From Escherichia phage Ec_Makalu_002: a DNA stretch of 64,000 nucleotides. Under the pieces are notes generated by a model. The model searched no databases, was not told the origin of the DNA, and saw only the letters and a program-made list of their open reading frames with translations. Every line of letters starts with the position of its first letter. The first letter of the stretch is position 1. The stretch is taken from sequence record MN709127.1; one strand, written 5' to 3'. Below are positions 56,755 through 62,393 of this stretch, in pieces. The translations under genes were made by a program, and so were the position numbers.

Positions 56755-57063
56755 TCATTTAGACAAATAATCATTCAGTGCAATCCGGTCGGCATGTTCC
56801 GGCGTTACATCAATCGCAATCACTTTAACGCGTGCTTTCTTGCGACCTGGGTTTTCTCGTAACCAGTGCTCATGACCGTGAACATTTTTATACTGCGATG
56901 CTTCTTCGAAGGTACGGATCGGACCAGGGTAATCAGCGTAAAGGATCTCTAGGTCATCGGTGATGTAAAAATATACGTTGTAATTACTGTTCTCTAGCTT
57001 AAGCAGAGACTTTCGGAACATTGGGAGATTTTCGCGGGTAAATTCAAAAGTAATATCTTTCAT
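56755..57063 (-). CDS. HxHW-family paralogue P1
   Basis: ATG 57063 with GAGGA site (ORF-track start 57210 overlaps upstream gene); motifs YFYITDDLEI, HGHEHW, VIAIDV. Confidence 0.5.
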   Translation of the reverse strand: MKDITFEFTRENLPMFRKSLLKLENSNYNVYFYITDDLEILYADYPGPIRTFEEASQYKNVHGHEHWLRENPGRKKARVKVIAIDVTPEHADRIALNDYLSK

Positions 57064-57085
57064 AGTATTATCCTCAATAGTTGGA

Positions 57086-57107
57086 TGAAAAGGGGGCTTA
57101 ACGCCCC
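57086..57107 (-). terminator. Minus-strand terminator
   Basis: GGGGCGTTAAGCCCCC followed by TTTT on minus strand; same hairpin core as the wac terminator. Confidence 0.5.
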
Positions 57108-57112
57108 ATATA

Positions 57113-57400
57113 TTAAAACAGTCCTTCCTGTACACCGTAGTAGAGTTCGTCGCTGATAATTTCATTAATGCGACGGTGTGCATATTCCTGATTTGCGAAG
57201 TTGTCAGCAAGTTCTACTTTAGTTTCACCGTCATGAGTCCATTTAGTGATAACTTTACCATCTGCAAATTTGAAGTTGAACTCTTTAGCTACTGCATCGC
57301 GTACCAGACGTGCGAACTTGTTGTTACGGATTGCATTATCGGTTTCGTGTGCAGCGTGAGCAAATTTGTTAACTTTCAGAGTGATAGTGATGTATGCCAT
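57113..57400 (-). CDS. Hypothetical early protein
   Basis: 95 aa; ATG behind conserved leader. Confidence 0.5.
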   Translation of the reverse strand: MAYITITLKVNKFAHAAHETDNAIRNNKFARLVRDAVAKEFNFKFADGKVITKWTHDGETKVELADNFANQEYAHRRINEIISDELYYGVQEGLF

Positions 57401-57446
57401 AATTTGATTCTCCTAGTTAGAAAGTGTATCTCGTTTCGATGGGTGT

Positions 57447-57475
57447 ATTATGCTATACACCCGATCTTATGTCAA
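57447..57475 (-). promoter_or_regulatory. Early promoter (TTGACA-17-CATAAT)
   Basis: Repeated module. Confidence 0.55.
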
Positions 57476-57483
57476 CACTTTTT

Positions 57484-57762
57484 TTATAAAATAATTTTTT
57501 GATATTTTTCTATGATGTTTGTGTAATCCACATCAACCGCTATCACCGTTGCTTCGAATCCACCGTTTAGCCAATGGCTATGGTCATGATCGTGAAAGAA
57601 ACCAAGACCAGTACGAAGACCTTCTTTATATTCGGCGCGTACATTTAGATCATCATCGATAAACAGATAAAACCATGAATTTTTACTAGGATTGATGATA
57701 CAACCTTTCAGATTAGGGAGAATATCACGACTAAGAATAAACTTATCACCTACTTTGAACAT
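57484..57762 (-). CDS. HxHW-family paralogue P2
   Basis: ORF track starts at GTG 57777; ATG 57762 with GAGGA site; motifs FYLFIDDDLNV, HDHDHSHW, VIAVDV. Confidence 0.5.
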   Translation of the reverse strand: MFKVGDKFILSRDILPNLKGCIINPSKNSWFYLFIDDDLNVRAEYKEGLRTGLGFFHDHDHSHWLNGGFEATVIAVDVDYTNIIEKYQKIIL

Positions 57763-57766
57763 AATA

Positions 57767-58087
57767 TTAGTCCTCACTTATAAGGTCAAACCAATTGTTT
57801 TTCGCATAATGCTTAATGCGTGCTTGATCTGCTTCCGCTGGTGATAGATTCCATGCAACCACTACAACTTCTGACGCGTCGTCATCCGTTTCTGATACCC
57901 AATGATTGTGATTCATACAGTTATTTGCGATCGAGTGAGCAAATGATTTCATCACTGGAGACGTATAATCATAGTAACGGATTTTCAGATTTTCATCAAC
58001 ATACAAGTAGATCGTATAAGGTTTATATTCAGTAACCAGTAACAGACAGTTACGCAATTCTGGGAAAATCTTTTTAGTTAATTTCAT
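57767..58087 (-). CDS. HxHW-family paralogue P3
   Basis: ATG 58087 one nt after upstream stop, GAGGA site; motifs YLYVDENLKI, NHNHW. Confidence 0.5.
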   Translation of the reverse strand: MKLTKKIFPELRNCLLLVTEYKPYTIYLYVDENLKIRYYDYTSPVMKSFAHSIANNCMNHNHWVSETDDDASEVVVVAWNLSPAEADQARIKHYAKNNWFDLISED

Positions 58088-58088
58088 T

Positions 58089-58307
58089 TTATAATCCTCG
58101 GTCGCGGCTATAGTACACGGTACGCCATACAATTTCATGTTTCGTGTCGCTCCAGCACACGATCTCATTTACTCTTAAATCTTTGTTATCAACAAAAGAT
58201 GAACATTGTGACGCTTCTTTCATCATTTTATCTGCTGTTTTCTCATCAAATACAGCACAGATTTCTTTATACACTCGATAATCTTTGAATTGACTCTGGA
58301 TACCCAT
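58089..58307 (-). CDS. Hypothetical protein, tandem paralogue of 58267..58524
   Basis: Shares SQFKDYRVYKEI...MMKEASQC with upstream neighbour; start uncertain (58307 or 58319). Confidence 0.4.
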   Translation of the reverse strand: MGIQSQFKDYRVYKEICAVFDEKTADKMMKEASQCSSFVDNKDLRVNEIVCWSDTKHEIVWRTVYYSRDRGL

Positions 58308-58524
58308 AATTAACACCATTCCAACCAATTGTTTTTGAGAAAACGTTTATCCACTGTTGAGTGTAGCATGTTTCTTTCCATGATACAATACGAGTAGAAT
58401 AATGGTTTTTGTTTCCAGAAAAGGACGGGCATTTTGATGCATCTTCCATCATCTTTTCGGCGAACTCCGCGTCATATACCCGCAGGATCTGTTGATATGC
58501 TTTATAATCTTTAAATTTGCTCAT
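58267..58524 (-). CDS. Hypothetical protein, tandem paralogue of 58089..58307
   Basis: SKFKDYKAYQQI...MMEDASKC; ATG start. Confidence 0.45.
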   Translation of the reverse strand: MSKFKDYKAYQQILRVYDAEFAEKMMEDASKCPSFSGNKNHYSTRIVSWKETCYTQQWINVFSKTIGWNGVNYGYPESIQRLSSV

Positions 58525-58789
58525 AATTGTTAACTACCTTATCAGCTTCTTTTATTGTTTTTACATCAACTGCGATAATCCGTAAAGGTTCGTCGAAGGT
58601 CCACCAGTGGTCATGAATATCAGCTTGTGATTTATCACCAAAGGAATCACGAATATCATTTTTACATTTATAGCTAATATGGCCTTCATAGTCAACATAA
58701 AGGTAATTATCGAAAATCGGCGTTTTTAAGATCATACCGAAAAATCTTTCTTTGTGTGTCTTATCAAGTGTTGCAGTAATTCGCATCAT
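58511..58789 (-). CDS. HxHW-family paralogue P4
   Basis: Motifs YLYVDYEGHI, HDHWW, IIAVDV. Confidence 0.5.
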   Translation of the reverse strand: MMRITATLDKTHKERFFGMILKTPIFDNYLYVDYEGHISYKCKNDIRDSFGDKSQADIHDHWWTFDEPLRIIAVDVKTIKEADKVVNNYEQI

Positions 58790-58801
58790 AATATATTCCT
58801 C

Positions 58802-58981
58802 TTAGAAAGGGATGGTCATTTCTTGAGCTTGTACATTCTCGTTAGGATTAAACTTCATCCAACCGATATTGTCTACCAGCATATGTACATTTTTATCATA
58901 TCCTACGTGAGTAGTCAACACTAAATGTGCTTTACCTTCAACGATGATTTCCATGTACTTCTGAACTTCGATAGCTTTCAT
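58802..58981 (-). CDS. Small hypothetical early protein (59 aa)
   Basis: ATG behind conserved leader and promoter; below ORF-track cut-off. Confidence 0.4.
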   Translation of the reverse strand: MKAIEVQKYMEIIVEGKAHLVLTTHVGYDKNVHMLVDNIGWMKFNPNENVQAQEMTIPF

Positions 58982-59013
58982 TTTGATTCTCCGTTTGTTG
59001 TCTTGATGGGAGT

Positions 59014-59042
59014 ATCTTACTACTCCCTTTAATCATTGTCAA
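59014..59042 (-). promoter_or_regulatory. Early promoter (TTGACA-17-TAAGAT) with hairpin overlapping -10
   Basis: GGGAGTA...TACTCCC inverted repeat spans the -10 region. Confidence 0.5.
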
Positions 59043-59045
59043 CTA

Positions 59046-59213
59046 TTATTTGTTAATTTCCGGTGCGTTGCTCGGATAGTAACCTTCTTTAACACCCAGA
59101 TATTTTGCAACCATTCCGGTGATCTTCTGTGCTACTACGATATCGAATTTCAGGTAGTCTTCACCGTGGTTTGCTACAATGTATGCTTCGCATTCTGCTT
59201 TAGTCTGGAACAT
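59046..59213 (-). CDS. Small protein (55 aa), duplicated gene copy B
   Basis: MFQTKAECEAYIVANHGEDYLKFDIVVAQKITGMVAKYLGVKEGYYPSNAPEINK; ORF-track N-terminal extension runs through the promoter leader. Confidence 0.5.
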   Translation of the reverse strand: MFQTKAECEAYIVANHGEDYLKFDIVVAQKITGMVAKYLGVKEGYYPSNAPEINK

Positions 59214-59247
59214 TTTTGATTCTCCTATATCTCGTTGGTATGTGTGC

Positions 59248-59276
59248 ATTATAGGGGATCGGTGATCCCCTGTCAA
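59248..59276 (-). promoter_or_regulatory. Early promoter with palindromic spacer (TTGACA-GGGGATCACCGATCCCC-TATAAT)
   Basis: Consensus hexamers, 17-bp GATC-hairpin spacer. Confidence 0.6.
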
Positions 59277-59283
59277 CAACTTT

Positions 59284-59580
59284 TTATGATTTTTCTTTAT
59301 ATGCGTATTGAATAAATTGGTCCGCCACTTCGTCGGCTTTTTCGGGTTTGACTTCTGACGCCAGGACAATAGCTAGATCGGTTTCGTCGTTCCCGTCATA
59401 CCAATGATTATGAGTGTCTTTTTCTTTGATATAGAATGAGTCATTTGGAGTTGGACGACAATATACGTCTAAATTCTCGTCGATGTAAAAGATCCAATCT
59501 TCATAAAGAATAACCGTATTAGCAAGGTTCTTATTACCTTCAACGAAAGGTTCGGTTACAAACAAATCAGTACGTTCCAT
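59284..59580 (-). CDS. HxHW-family paralogue P5
   Basis: Motifs IFYIDENLDV, HNHW. Confidence 0.5.
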   Translation of the reverse strand: MERTDLFVTEPFVEGNKNLANTVILYEDWIFYIDENLDVYCRPTPNDSFYIKEKDTHNHWYDGNDETDLAIVLASEVKPEKADEVADQFIQYAYKEKS

Positions 59581-59595
59581 AGTATTTTCCTCAAA

Positions 59596-59757
59596 TTAAG
59601 AAAAAGCGTTGAAAACAACCGCCAACACAACTACGTTAGCGATAAGGCTTAAAAAGCATTTCTTGAAACTTTCAGTGCAGATACCAATACTGGCAGGAAT
59701 TACACCGATCACGATAGCATAAAGAATAACTGCGATTTCTTGAAATACACCGTTCAT
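59596..59757 (-). CDS. Small hydrophobic protein (53 aa)
   Basis: Largely hydrophobic sequence; ATG with GAGGA site; below ORF-track cut-off. Confidence 0.4.
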   Translation of the reverse strand: MNGVFQEIAVILYAIVIGVIPASIGICTESFKKCFLSLIANVVVLAVVFNAFS

Positions 59758-59814
59758 AATATTATCCTCAAAGTATGGGAGAGTGTTACCCCTCCCGATG
59801 ATTGTTATATTGCA

Positions 59815-60147
59815 TCACACAAAATGGCGTGTCAATGCTTCTTTTGCGGTTCCGCTAAGATTCTCGATCTCTCCTGGCATAACATCAACCGCCAGAACTT
59901 CTACAACATCCTCTGTTCCTAACCAGTGAGTATGACCTTTGTAGAACTTGATGCCCATATTGCCTTCTTCGTCCCATTTAACGCCCCATTTAACGTTATC
60001 ACTAGCCCACCACACATCACCGTCGATAAAGTTGATGTAAAGCACACTACGCCACATTGAATTAGTTACTTTCAATACCGCGCCTTTCATCTCTTCCACG
60101 GTGTGGTCTTCCATTTTGAAGACCTCGCCTACCTGAACTTTTGCCAT
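59815..60147 (-). CDS. HxHW-family paralogue P6
   Basis: Motifs LYINFIDGDV, GHTHW, VLAVDV. Confidence 0.5.
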   Translation of the reverse strand: MAKVQVGEVFKMEDHTVEEMKGAVLKVTNSMWRSVLYINFIDGDVWWASDNVKWGVKWDEEGNMGIKFYKGHTHWLGTEDVVEVLAVDVMPGEIENLSGTAKEALTRHFV

Positions 60148-60164: not shown

Positions 60165-60344
60165 TTACATAACAATCACGCCAGCCGTTGAAAGTTGATG
60201 TTTCAACTGAGCATTTTCTGCTACTGTCAAATCAATGATTTCTTGTGACGCTGCAATCATATAGCCATTGGTGATATTGTTTTGCATCAGTTCAATGGTT
60301 TCTTCGTTGTAGCGGATTTTAGCGATGATTTCGTTGAAGTTCAT
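60165..60344 (-). CDS. Hypothetical early protein (59 aa)
   Basis: ATG 60344 behind conserved leader; ORF-track start 60380 lies inside the -10 element. Confidence 0.45.
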   Translation of the reverse strand: MNFNEIIAKIRYNEETIELMQNNITNGYMIAASQEIIDLTVAENAQLKHQLSTAGVIVM

Positions 60345-60378
60345 GTTTGATTCTCCTAGTTCGTTTCGGTATGTGTGC

Positions 60379-60408
60379 ATTATAGGGGATCTCCCGACCC
60401 CCTGTCAA
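60379..60408 (-). promoter_or_regulatory. Early promoter with palindromic spacer (TTGACA-GGGGGTCGGGAGATCCCC-TATAAT)
   Basis: Consensus hexamers, 18-bp hairpin spacer. Confidence 0.6.
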
Positions 60409-60421
60409 CAACTTTTTTGAA

Positions 60422-60898
60422 TTATTTTTCTTGATGCTCGCGCTCGTACTTTTCGAAATAAAATTCTACTGGCTGATCGTGGATTGAAAGCAAGCCAAAG
60501 CGTTTAGCCGCACGTAATCCCATGTTACGTTGAATGTACTTCTGGAAGTTCTCGCGTATACACTTACGCCAGTATTCTAAGCCCATACAGCTTTTGTAAA
60601 GATTGCATTGCACACAAGCCGGATTCATGTTGTCAAGTATATCGTGCTCCGGTTTATGCATTCCTACAACCTTATACTTCCACGACCCATCATCATTACG
60701 GGCAATTCGTCCATTTTCATCATAGACTACTTTTGAGCGTCGCAATACTGGTTTGATGTGGTCTGCGTGCCAGCGATCCCCTAGTTCCTCGCCACAATAG
60801 GCACAACGTCCACCGTATTTCATTTTCAGGATCTGGCGTTGCTCTTTCTTTGACAATTTTTTAGGTTTAGGGGCTTTCGCCCCTTCATTATCACACAT
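60422..60898 (-). CDS. HNH endonuclease
   Basis: CAYCG ... WHADHIKP ... N ... CVQCN (HNH zinc-finger nuclease signature); start overlaps 3' end of ligase gene. Confidence 0.7.
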   Translation of the reverse strand: MCDNEGAKAPKPKKLSKKEQRQILKMKYGGRCAYCGEELGDRWHADHIKPVLRRSKVVYDENGRIARNDDGSWKYKVVGMHKPEHDILDNMNPACVQCNLYKSCMGLEYWRKCIRENFQKYIQRNMGLRAAKRFGLLSIHDQPVEFYFEKYEREHQEK

Positions 60899-62393
60899 CG
60901 AATACCTCTTTTACTGTATTTGCAGTGGTCTTGTCGTAGCGAATACGTTTGATGATTGGGAGAAATAAAGAGAACTCCGGTTCATCTTCTTTACGTGATT
61001 TGCTGCGGATATATCCGTTGCATGTCATCTCAATGACTTTTCCAATCAGGTTATGACGGTCAGCCCATAACATTTCTCGGTCAAGTTCATTTCGACGATC
61101 GAACGGAATTACACGTTCAATACCATCATCACCTTTTTCGGTTGTGGTGTCTGTCAATCCCGATCCGGTGTTAGTCATCATTCGTCCGCACGCACTACGG
61201 ACAGTAAAACCGCCTACCTTGTTAGGTTCTTTACTGTGCGGATATACATCAACAATTTCCGCGTCGAAGTCAATCACTTCTTTAAATTTAACCTGGTCTT
61301 TACTGCGACGATCTTCAAATACACCATGTAAATTTTTAAGGATAATACCTTCTAATCCCATGTTGACATAACGATGATATACTTCGCGAGCTTCATCGAT
61401 ATTGTTAACTACAGTATTTTCGATTATCTGAACACGAGGATCGTTAAGTTCTTCAACAATCTGTTTTAGTTCTTCGAATCGATCTTTATATTGCTTCGTT
61501 GCTTTCTCGTTTCCGTAATACACATCACGGTCGATAACATCCCAGACAGTGTAAACAATACATTGGGCTTCTTCTTTTGGAATAGTTCCTTTCAGTGATT
61601 TGTTGAGGATACCATTTCCGGTCTGACGGTCTGCAACAACGGATTCTTTCACTGCTTCCGCTACTGGCGTTAATGGCATTTCCTCTTCTTCAAATATCCA
61701 TGATAGAGTACCATCATAAACGCTCTCAACGAAGTTCTGCGCTGGTGTTTGAGAAAGGGTAGGCATATATACCAACTCACCATCTAAAACAATTCCACGG
61801 CCTCGTAGACGCTCTAAAACAGCAAACAAATCATCCAGCCCCTGATAGGTATTACCTGAACGGGTATAGATTGCTAATGTTTCTCCGTCAATATCAGCCA
61901 TACCACGAGCGCCATCGCTTTTAAGTTGTGCATACGCCGGATATTTGATATTGGCAATAGTCTTATCAGAACATGACGATGCAAGGTGGCACGGCTGCTG
62001 AGGAATCAGCTTCTTCCATACCTTGTTTGCGGTGGTAGCGGAACAACCGCATTCCAGATCACGATTCAGGACCATCATTGCAACTTTAGCATCATCTTCT
62101 GACAAGCAAGTCAGAGTATCGGTAACTAGCTGTAATGCAGCATTACCAGTTACTTGACGCGTGGCAAGTTTATTTTTAAAGACCTGTAATGCACCGGATA
62201 AAGACAATACAGACGAATAGCGAGACGGTTTATCGTATTTCTTTACGCCAAACGTAACCTGCTTGCAATATGCCAGATAAAAGCATTCTTTCAGCGTTTC
62301 ATTGCTTGCAGATTCTTTCAGGATCTTTTCTTTCAGCGATGTTTTGTCAGTAGCTGCAAGCTGATTAATGATATTAAGAATTGACATTTTCAC
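60891..62393 (-). CDS. 30: ATP-dependent DNA ligase gp30
   Basis: 500 aa; adenylation motif I YAQLKSDGAR (KxDG); size close to T4 gp30. Confidence 0.85.
   Translation of the reverse strand: MKMSILNIINQLAATDKTSLKEKILKESASNETLKECFYLAYCKQVTFGVKKYDKPSRYSSVLSLSGALQVFKNKLATRQVTGNAALQLVTDTLTCLSEDDAKVAMMVLNRDLECGCSATTANKVWKKLIPQQPCHLASSCSDKTIANIKYPAYAQLKSDGARGMADIDGETLAIYTRSGNTYQGLDDLFAVLERLRGRGIVLDGELVYMPTLSQTPAQNFVESVYDGTLSWIFEEEEMPLTPVAEAVKESVVADRQTGNGILNKSLKGTIPKEEAQCIVYTVWDVIDRDVYYGNEKATKQYKDRFEELKQIVEELNDPRVQIIENTVVNNIDEAREVYHRYVNMGLEGIILKNLHGVFEDRRSKDQVKFKEVIDFDAEIVDVYPHSKEPNKVGGFTVRSACGRMMTNTGSGLTDTTTEKGDDGIERVIPFDRRNELDREMLWADRHNLIGKVIEMTCNGYIRSKSRKEDEPEFSLFLPIIKRIRYDKTTANTVKEVFDV

What the first reader, a model, noticed from the sequence alone, without database searches (positions are those of the whole stretch)
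60422..60898. HNH endonuclease overlapping the 3' end of the ligase gene
A 158-aa protein with a complete HNH zinc-finger nuclease signature (CAYCG...WHADHIKP...CVQCN) is encoded immediately downstream of gene 30, with an 8-nt overlap, and directly upstream of an early promoter module. It may be a homing endonuclease targeting ligase alleles or a nicking enzyme with a role in replication or packaging; the tight coupling to ligase is notable.
Basis: partly seen in the sequence, partly recalled or inferred. Interest (0 to 1): 0.4.

Follow-up and report, generated by a model that had tools for sequence, protein, structure and literature searches.

The report
Conserved HNH nuclease gene after ligase
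The gene is a real, intact small HNH DNA-cutting enzyme at the end of the DNA ligase gene of an RB49-type (Krischvirus) T4-like coliphage, but it was annotated years ago, sits in every sequenced relative, and evolves like a fixed working gene, not a mobile homing endonuclease.

Summary
A 158-aa ORF on the minus strand (60422-60898) overlaps the ligase stop by 8 nt (ATGTGTGA). It has a GAGG ribosome-binding site and all HNH residues (C32/C35/C95/C98 zinc site; D46-H47, N90, N99). A perfect sigma-70 promoter with an internal stem-loop (PeSL) follows it.

The window is a Krischvirus and the ORF is RB49ORF212c. A 2006 paper listed it as a putative mobile HNH element, and RefSeq calls it "HNH endonuclease".

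- All 58 complete Krischvirus records carry it at this site.
- dN/dS is 0-0.04, the same as ligase.
- A divergent metagenomic relative keeps the ligase-HNH order, with both proteins about 70% identical to the window's.
- No other T4-like genus examined has it.
- It has no late promoter of its own and no extra DNA-binding domain detected.

Distant homologues (about 40-50% identity) are single-domain proteins. They lie in replication/recombination (nin-like) regions of prophages and siphoviruses and on IncHI2 plasmids, rarely beside terminase.

Most likely it is a domesticated accessory nuclease or nickase, co-expressed with ligase. Its substrate and role are untested.

Interest is low. The gene is already known.

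The parts
60422..60898 (-). HNH nuclease gene, 158 aa, orthologue of RB49ORF212c. Zinc ligands C32, C35, C95, C98. Active-site residues D46-H47, N90, N99. Family-specific C-terminal FYFE motif (F146, F148, E149).
   Evidence: invariant columns; AlphaFold2 mean pLDDT 92.8.
60891..62393 (-). Gene 30, ATP-dependent DNA ligase. The annotated start in relatives is the ATG at 62387. Its last 8 nt overlap the HNH start.
   Evidence: (PF01068 E=2.8e-22).
60891..60898 (-). ATGTGTGA overlap between the ligase stop and the HNH start. The arrangement suggests translational coupling.
   Evidence: The relative L006 has a TAATG overlap at the same junction.
60905..60908 (-). Shine-Dalgarno GAGG, 6 nt upstream of the HNH ATG, inside the ligase coding sequence.
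   Evidence: Read.
60870..60883 (-). GGGGC-GAAA-GCCCC hairpin in HNH codons 6-10. It lies within an 8-codon stretch (DNEGAKAP) that is absent from the L006 orthologue. It may attenuate expression.
   Evidence: fold; N-terminal comparison.
60379..60408 (-). PeSL-type early promoter: TTGACA, an 18-nt spacer holding the stem-loop, then TATAAT. It marks the start of the hyperplastic region downstream of HNH.
   Evidence: Annotated as a promoter in GEC-3S. PeSLs are described in PMC2839356.
60165..60344 (-). First cassette ORF after the promoter (59 aa, PHROG 14803, unknown function). This part varies among Krischvirus genomes.
   Evidence: match to residues 13-71 of the listed ORF; alignments break or insert here.

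Best explanation
This is a fixed, vertically inherited accessory gene for a small stand-alone HNH (beta-beta-alpha-metal) DNA nuclease.

The common ancestor of Krischvirus and its nearest uncultured relatives acquired it once, from the pool of mobile-element genes (prophages, siphoviruses, plasmids). It was inserted at the very 3' end of gene 30.

It is the last cistron of the conserved cd-31-30.3-30 gene run. It is probably transcribed with ligase and translated by coupling (8-nt overlap plus its own GAGG). Transcription is then re-set by a PeSL promoter.

Inferred mechanism: the four cysteines hold a structural zinc, D46 and N99 hold Mg2+/Mn2+, and H47 activates water. The enzyme would nick or cut DNA leaving 5'-phosphate and 3'-OH ends, which are the substrate of the ligase it is co-expressed with.

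The most likely role is in phage DNA metabolism during infection: recombination or replication-promoting nicks, or cleavage of non-self DNA. Ongoing homing and DNA packaging are less likely.

Shown here: gene reality, intact catalytic residues, fixation, purifying selection, co-divergence with ligase, lineage-specific acquisition, and the genomic context of relatives.

Inferred only: nuclease activity, nick chemistry, timing of expression, and biological role.
For: - Identity and motifs. Confident model with an HNH core.
- Nearest solved relatives are the Gme HNH nicking endonuclease 4h9d (profile E=3.8e-5; Foldseek rank 1) and Cas9 HNH domains, which share the D-H...N...N arrangement.
- Fixation: 58 of 58 complete Krischvirus records.
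- Selection: omega 0.00-0.04 for HNH against 0.017-0.035 for ligase.
- Old linkage: L006 and L007 keep ligase then HNH, at 71% and 70% identity to the window's proteins, dN 0.21 and 0.23.
- Lineage-specific: 1471 other ligase-bearing phage records have ligase below 60% identity. The low-identity HNH hits that were sampled are all in genomes of 80 kb or less. T4, KP15 and ZZ1 have other genes after gene 30.
- Context of relatives: mid-operon, often with 4-nt overlaps, next to NinG/Rap, NinB/Orf, replication protein P, Q, YqaJ, ParB, methyltransferases, polymerase and helicase.
- No TATAAATA late promoter within 2.5 kb upstream on the coding strand.
Against: - No biochemical or genetic data exist for this protein or for any close family member. 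No paper other than the 2006 genome comparison names it.
- Genomic context gives only a weak functional hint.
- One relative (Bas77) has the gene two small ORFs upstream of the large terminase.
- One metagenomic Krischvirus contig (L101) carries TGG to TAG at the nearly invariant W110. If that is real, the gene can be lost without killing the phage.
- All 58 genomes are at least 95% identical at the nucleotide level. 'Present in all' therefore samples a shallow clade, plus one deeper relative.
Confidence: 0.7

Rival explanations
1. It is a free-standing homing endonuclease, as first proposed. It would cut the 3' end of gene 30, or the junction downstream of it, in phages that lack it, and be copied in by repair. 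It may now be fixed but still active against HNH-less relatives.
For: - It is inserted at a gene boundary next to a conserved essential gene, as T4 seg and mob genes are.
- Nolan et al. 2006 listed it under 'putative mobile DNA elements'.
- It is absent from other T4-like genera, so it did arrive by lateral transfer.
- A hairpin just after its start codon could limit its translation, as in T4 homing endonuclease genes (the T4 comparison is from my own knowledge).
Against: - Present in 58 of 58 genomes with no empty site.
- Omega of about 0.02, equal to ligase.
- Divergence matches that of ligase in L006.
- No late promoter.
- No NUMOD, AP2, HTH or other DNA-binding module detected.
- Relatives are ordinary mid-operon genes of prophages and plasmids.
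Confidence: 0.12
2. It is a terminase-associated HNH, like HK97 gp74, that assists DNA cleavage during packaging.
For: Similar size and a CxxC...HNH...CxxC layout. In Bas77 a homologue lies two small ORFs upstream of the large terminase.
Against: - hhalign of HK97 gp74 against the family profile finds nothing (probability 0.8%).
- No terminase lies within two genes on either side in 20 homologue clusters.
- In the window the neighbours are ligase and early cassette ORFs.
- T4-type phages package by the headful mechanism using the gp17 nuclease (established knowledge, not tested here).
Confidence: 0.04
3. It is a structure-selective nuclease of the endonuclease VII or Rap type. It would cut branched or cruciform DNA, possibly the GGGG...CCCC stem-loops of PeSL cassettes, and so drive cassette shuffling and mini-circle formation.
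For: - Weak matches to PHROGs labelled 'endonuclease VII' (E=1e-9 and 6e-7).
- BFVD structural neighbours auto-named 'recombination endonuclease VII'.
- Relatives lie in nin-like recombination regions.
- The gene sits exactly at the border of the PeSL-rich plastic region.
- Arbiol et al. asked whether a helper protein recognises the PeSL stem-loop.
Against: - No Pfam Endonuclease_7 hit.
- Foldseek against T4 endonuclease VII (1en7) gives TM 0.25, E=0.19.
- PeSL-like elements are reported in T4-like phages that lack this gene, such as 44RR, Aeh1, RB43 and JS98.
- Homologues often sit beside a NinG/Rap gene, so they do not replace it.
Confidence: 0.1

Closest known systems
RB49ORF212c (AAQ15441.1) and its Krischvirus orthologues, e.g. 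GEC-3S YP_009118897.1, RefSeq 'HNH endonuclease'
   Same: Same gene: 98.7-100% amino-acid identity, same position and same 8-nt overlap with gene 30.
   Different: Nothing of substance. Only the C-terminal 3-4 residues vary (EHQEK here, ENKE in RB49).
PHROG 2118, a family of stand-alone HNH proteins of 120-200 aa in prophages, siphoviruses (eiAU, Sasha, Bas77) and IncHI2 or phage-plasmids
   Same: Full-length homology at 35-50% identity. It covers the zinc site, D-H...N...N and the C-terminal FYFE motif.
   Different: Those genes lie in nin-like or replication modules, or on plasmids, and are never next to a ligase in the cases examined. The window protein has a lysine-rich N-terminal extension and a longer beta-hairpin insert at residues 53-80.
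Gme HNH nicking endonuclease of Geobacter metallireducens (PDB 4h9d)
   Same: Closest solved structure: small, zinc-containing HNH core.
   Different: Only about 30 residues align by sequence, TM-score (query) 0.31. The C-terminal helical part and the hairpin insert have no counterpart.
T4-type free-standing homing endonuclease genes (seg, mob, I-TevIII)
   Same: Nuclease gene inserted between conserved genes of a T4-like phage. Listed as a putative mobile element in 2006.
   Different: Not sporadic, under strong purifying selection, no promoter of its own, no separate DNA-binding domain detected.
HK97 gp74 terminase-associated HNH
   Same: Small phage HNH protein with paired CxxC motifs.
   Different: No detectable homology beyond the motif. 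Different genomic neighbourhood and a different packaging strategy in the host phage.

Membership tests
HNH / beta-beta-alpha-metal nuclease superfamily (Pfam PF01844) | Profile match above the curated threshold | tested here: met
   27 bits against a cut-off of 21.4, E=5e-6.
HNH / beta-beta-alpha-metal nuclease superfamily (Pfam PF01844) | Catalytic His preceded by Asp, a structural Asn, a metal-binding Asn or His, and two CxxC pairs for zinc | tested here: met
   D46, H47, N90, N99, C32, C35, C95 and C98 are invariant in 46 family members. The model has the expected strands and helix.
HNH / beta-beta-alpha-metal nuclease superfamily (Pfam PF01844) | Metal-dependent DNA cleavage | not testable with these tools
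   Needs an enzyme assay.
PHROG 2118 stand-alone HNH family | Full-length similarity, including the C-terminal FYFE region | tested here: met
   E=8e-55 over residues 4-157. F146, F148 and E149 are invariant.
Free-standing homing endonuclease gene | Sporadic presence or absence among close relatives | tested here: not met
   58 of 58 complete Krischvirus records carry it at the same site.
Free-standing homing endonuclease gene | Evolution independent of, or more relaxed than, the flanking host gene | tested here: not met
   Omega 0-0.04 against 0.017-0.035 for ligase. 70% against 71% identity in L006.
Free-standing homing endonuclease gene | Extra sequence-specific DNA-binding module | tested here: not met
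   No Pfam domain other than HNH at E<=0.01. The model is a single compact HNH domain plus helices. This is an absence of detection, not proof.
Free-standing homing endonuclease gene | Cleaves the cognate allele that lacks the gene | not testable with these tools
   No close HNH-less allele exists in the databases. Needs cleavage and co-infection assays.
Terminase-associated HNH (HK97 gp74 type) | Homology to gp74 | tested here: not met
   hhalign probability 0.8%. This was a single sequence against a profile, so sensitivity is limited.
Terminase-associated HNH (HK97 gp74 type) | Gene adjacent to the terminase or portal genes | tested here: not met
   Neighbours are ligase and early cassette ORFs. 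No terminase among 80 neighbours of 20 homologue clusters. One exception, Bas77.
T4 endonuclease VII family (Pfam PF02945) | Profile or fold match to endonuclease VII | tested here: not met
   No Pfam hit at E<=0.01. Foldseek against 1en7: E=0.19, TM 0.25. Only weak hits to PHROGs carrying that label.
P1 Ref (RecA-dependent HNH nuclease) | Homology to Ref | tested here: not met
   hhalign probability 1.0%, 12 aligned columns.
McrA-type modification-dependent restriction enzyme | N-terminal modified-cytosine reader domain plus a C-terminal HNH | tested here: not met
   The protein is 158 aa with only the HNH domain. Foldseek against 6ghc: E=0.33. The 'McrA' names on homologues are generic JGI labels.
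Anti-phage defence HNH effectors (PtuB, retron) | Significant match to PADLOC or NCBIfam models | tested here: not met
   Best PADLOC hit PtuB E=4.8e-4, 18 bits, motif only. TIGR02646: 16 bits against a cut-off of 52.

The most novel reading that the evidence does not exclude
The HNH enzyme could be the 'helper' that Arbiol et al. asked about: a nuclease that nicks the GGGG...CCCC stem-loops of PeSL cassettes. It would then trigger the recombination that shuffles ORFan cassettes and releases PeSL mini-circles, with the co-expressed ligase sealing the products.

The gene's place exactly at the border of the PeSL-rich plastic region would then not be accidental. Nor would the GGGGC-GAAA-GCCCC hairpin inside its own 5' end.
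Probability: 0.05. Interest if true: 0.6.

Novelty: already known. Interest (0 to 1): 0.15.

Why it matters
As it stands it matters little. The gene is a long-annotated accessory HNH nuclease of RB49-type phages, and the mobile-element reading that made it attractive is not supported.

Its modest value is as an example of a laterally acquired nuclease that became a fixed, strongly constrained partner of an essential gene. It is also a handle on a very large, biochemically uncharacterised HNH family: about 1,500 clusters at 50% identity, more than 2,600 plasmid records, and many prophages.

If the enzyme turned out to act on PeSL stem-loops, it would explain how cassette shuffling is driven in these phages.

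Tried and rejected
- HK97 gp74 (packaging HNH): hhalign found no relation.
- P1 Ref: no relation.
- T4 endonuclease VII: no Pfam hit and a poor fold match.
- McrA, Cas9 and PtuB: only the generic HNH motif matches.
- A late promoter of the kind T4 homing endonuclease genes have: no TATAAATA near the gene.
- A Krischvirus genome lacking the gene: the one 'extra' ligase record is a 1.5-kb RB49 fragment.
- Intermediate relatives: only L006 and L007 were found.
- P0004, a 167-aa variant that diverges after residue 75: it lies at the end of a metagenome scaffold and is most simply an assembly chimera.
- Neighbour-gene statistics on 20 homologue clusters gave a replication/recombination flavour but no single conserved partner.
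- Literature: no functional study was found.

Full report
**Observation**

The minus strand of the window carries a 158-aa ORF at 60422-60898. Its ATG (60898-60896) lies 8 nt upstream of the end of the ligase ORF, whose TGA is at 60893-60891. The two genes therefore share ATGTGTGA. A GAGG Shine-Dalgarno sequence sits 6 nt before the ATG, inside the ligase coding sequence.

The protein reaches the Pfam HNH gathering score (E=5e-6). It matches PHROG 2118 'HNH endonuclease' over its whole length (E=8e-55).

Fourteen nucleotides after its stop codon comes a perfect TTGACA-18-TATAAT promoter whose spacer forms a GGGG...CCCC stem-loop (60379-60408). A second copy lies at 59248-59276. None is expected by chance. 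All three factual parts of the finding are therefore confirmed.

**What phage and what gene**

The region is 95-98.5% identical to 58 complete Krischvirus genomes, including RB49, phi1, JSE and GEC-3S. The closest is Ec_Makalu_003.

In RB49 the ORF is RB49ORF212c, annotated 'similar to Salmonella HCM1.27c'. RefSeq names the orthologues 'HNH endonuclease'. Nolan et al. 2006 (PMC1524935) listed RB49ORF212c under 'putative mobile DNA elements' on the strength of its Pfam hit. No other paper in the library names it.

The promoter module is a PeSL (promoter-early stem-loop). PeSLs are the regulatory and recombination cassettes described for RB49 and phi1 by Arbiol et al. 2010 (PMC2839356).

**Distribution**

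Every one of the 58 complete Krischvirus records aligns continuously from the ligase 3' end through the HNH gene to the PeSL. All encode a protein 97.5-100% identical to the window's. The single extra ligase record is a 1.5-kb RB49 fragment.

The alignments break, or acquire a 350-390-bp insert (RB49 ORF211), only downstream of the HNH stop. The gene is thus the last conserved gene before the hyperplastic region.

Among 1471 other phage records with a gene-30 homologue (ligase below 60% identical), the sampled low-identity HNH hits all lie in genomes of 80 kb or less. T4, KP15 and ZZ1 have unrelated small ORFs, alt genes or a terminator after gene 30. The gene is therefore a lineage-specific acquisition.

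**Age and selection**

Against RB49 the HNH gene has 21 synonymous and 2 non-synonymous differences (omega 0.019). Against GEC-3S it has 14 and 0. Ligase gives omega 0.017-0.035.

Two short metagenomic contigs, L006 and L007, encode a ligase C-terminal half 71% identical to the window's. It is followed directly by an HNH protein 70% identical, with a TAATG overlap, and then by a terminator hairpin and a promoter. dN is 0.21 for ligase and 0.23 for HNH.

The pair has therefore been inherited together, under similar constraint, for much longer than the age of the sequenced genus.

**The protein**

In an alignment of 46 homologues the following residues are invariant: C32, C35, C95, C98, D46, H47, N90, N99, R21, R53, K102, R111 and a C-terminal F146-x-F148-E149.

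AlphaFold2 gives a confident single-domain model with mean pLDDT 92.8. It has the HNH strands and helix, a beta-hairpin insert at residues 53-80, and three C-terminal helices.

No solved structure is close. The best matches are:
- the Gme HNH nicking endonuclease 4h9d (Foldseek E=0.04; profile E=3.8e-5 over about 30 residues);
- Cas9 HNH domains, which share the D-H...N...N arrangement.

T4 endonuclease VII, EcoKMcrA, P1 Ref, HK97 gp74 and PtuB match only through the motif or not at all.

From established HNH chemistry, the expected reaction is one-metal hydrolysis leaving 5'-phosphate and 3'-OH ends. This is inferred, not shown.

**Relatives elsewhere**

The family is large: 1556 clusters at 50% identity with E<=1e-10, and nearly all members are 120-220 aa. 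Members were found in the following places.
- Siphoviruses and prophages:
  - in eiAU, between the polymerase and helicase genes;
  - in Sasha, after the primase and methyltransferase genes;
  - in two prophage contigs, after a methyltransferase and before the excisionase and integrase genes.
- In 20 non-redundant IMG/VR clusters, the two genes on each side include NinG/Rap, NinB/Orf, NinF, NinH, replication protein P, antiterminator Q, YqaJ, ParB and nucleotide phosphatases. They often have 4-nt overlaps on both sides. No terminase is among them.
- Bas77 is an exception, with the gene two small ORFs upstream of TerL.
- 2683 plasmid records carry a homologue, mostly conjugative (2434); the two examined were an IncHI2 plasmid and an IncY plasmid.

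This places the family among accessory DNA-metabolism genes of mobile elements. It gives no precise function.

**Interpretation**

The homing-endonuclease reading fails the tests that can be run.
- There is no presence/absence polymorphism.
- Purifying selection equals that on ligase.
- Divergence runs parallel with ligase.
- No late promoter lies within 2.5 kb upstream on the coding strand.
- No DNA-binding module was detected.

A fixed but still active homing enzyme cannot be excluded without experiments (about 0.12).

A packaging role is unlikely (about 0.04).

The best-supported view is a domesticated stand-alone HNH nuclease or nickase, co-expressed with ligase and acting in phage DNA metabolism. 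I have high confidence that it is a functional, non-mobile gene. I have much lower confidence about its substrate.

A structure-selective role, possibly on PeSL stem-loops, is an attractive minority reading. The gene borders the PeSL region, and Arbiol et al. raised the possibility of a helper protein. However, PeSL-like elements occur in T4-like phages that lack this gene, and the fold match to endonuclease VII is poor.

**Verdict**

The gene is already known and annotated, and its function remains untested. Interest is low.

Noticed in passing
window 56755-60147, minus strand (ORFs 59815-60147, 59284-59580, 58511-58789, 57484-57777, 57767-58168, 56755-57210): Six tandem small ORFs of about 90-150 aa downstream of the HNH gene are paralogues, 19-25% identical to the first, with an invariant H-x-H-W motif followed by a V-I-A-V-D-V-like strand. 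They match PHROGs 16486, 15965 and 9345, all of unknown function. This is an expanded ORFan family inside the hyperplastic region.
   Followed up: partly
window 60379-60408 and 59248-59276, minus strand: [quoted passage not shown] Each is followed by the same leader and Shine-Dalgarno sequence. The ORF listing therefore reports spurious 'MHTY...GES.M' N-terminal extensions for the ORFs at 60165-60380 and 59046-59369.
   Followed up: partly
window 60870-60883, minus strand: A GGGGC-GAAA-GCCCC hairpin lies in codons 6-10 of the HNH gene, within an 8-codon stretch (DNEGAKAP) that the 70%-identical orthologue in L006 lacks. It resembles the GGGG...CCCC stems of PeSLs. It could attenuate HNH expression or be a remnant of a cassette junction.
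   Followed up: partly
L101:4001-4330 (Logan ERR14656784 contig, 26.6 kb): A metagenomic Krischvirus contig carries TGG to TAG at the nearly invariant W110 of the HNH gene. The rest of the gene stays in frame with only synonymous-type differences. It is either a natural amber (loss-of-function) allele or a sequencing error.
   Followed up: partly
L100:5001-5504 (ENA ERZ16268176 scaffold_8678): An HNH ORF is identical to the window's up to residue 75 and then continues into unrelated sequence near the scaffold end. This is probably an assembly chimera, but a real recombinant was not excluded.
   Followed up: no
window 60381 downstream, compared across Krischvirus genomes: Many relatives (RB49, JSE, phi1, GEC-3S and others) have an extra 350-390 bp (RB49 ORF211, or a 103-aa ORF in GEC-3S) directly after the HNH gene. 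There the window has only the PeSL followed by a 59-aa ORF. The plastic region therefore starts at the HNH stop codon.
   Followed up: partly
L006:1216-1320: In the divergent relative, the HNH gene is followed by a classical intrinsic terminator (AAGCCGATCC-TTTTT-GGGGGTCGGCTT plus a T-run) and then TTGACA-17-TAATAT. This is a PeSL-like terminator-plus-promoter unit at the equivalent position.
   Followed up: no
window 62387-62393, minus strand: the ORF listing starts the ligase at the GTG at 62393 (500 aa). RB49 and GEC-3S annotate the ATG two codons downstream, giving 498 aa.
   Followed up: yes
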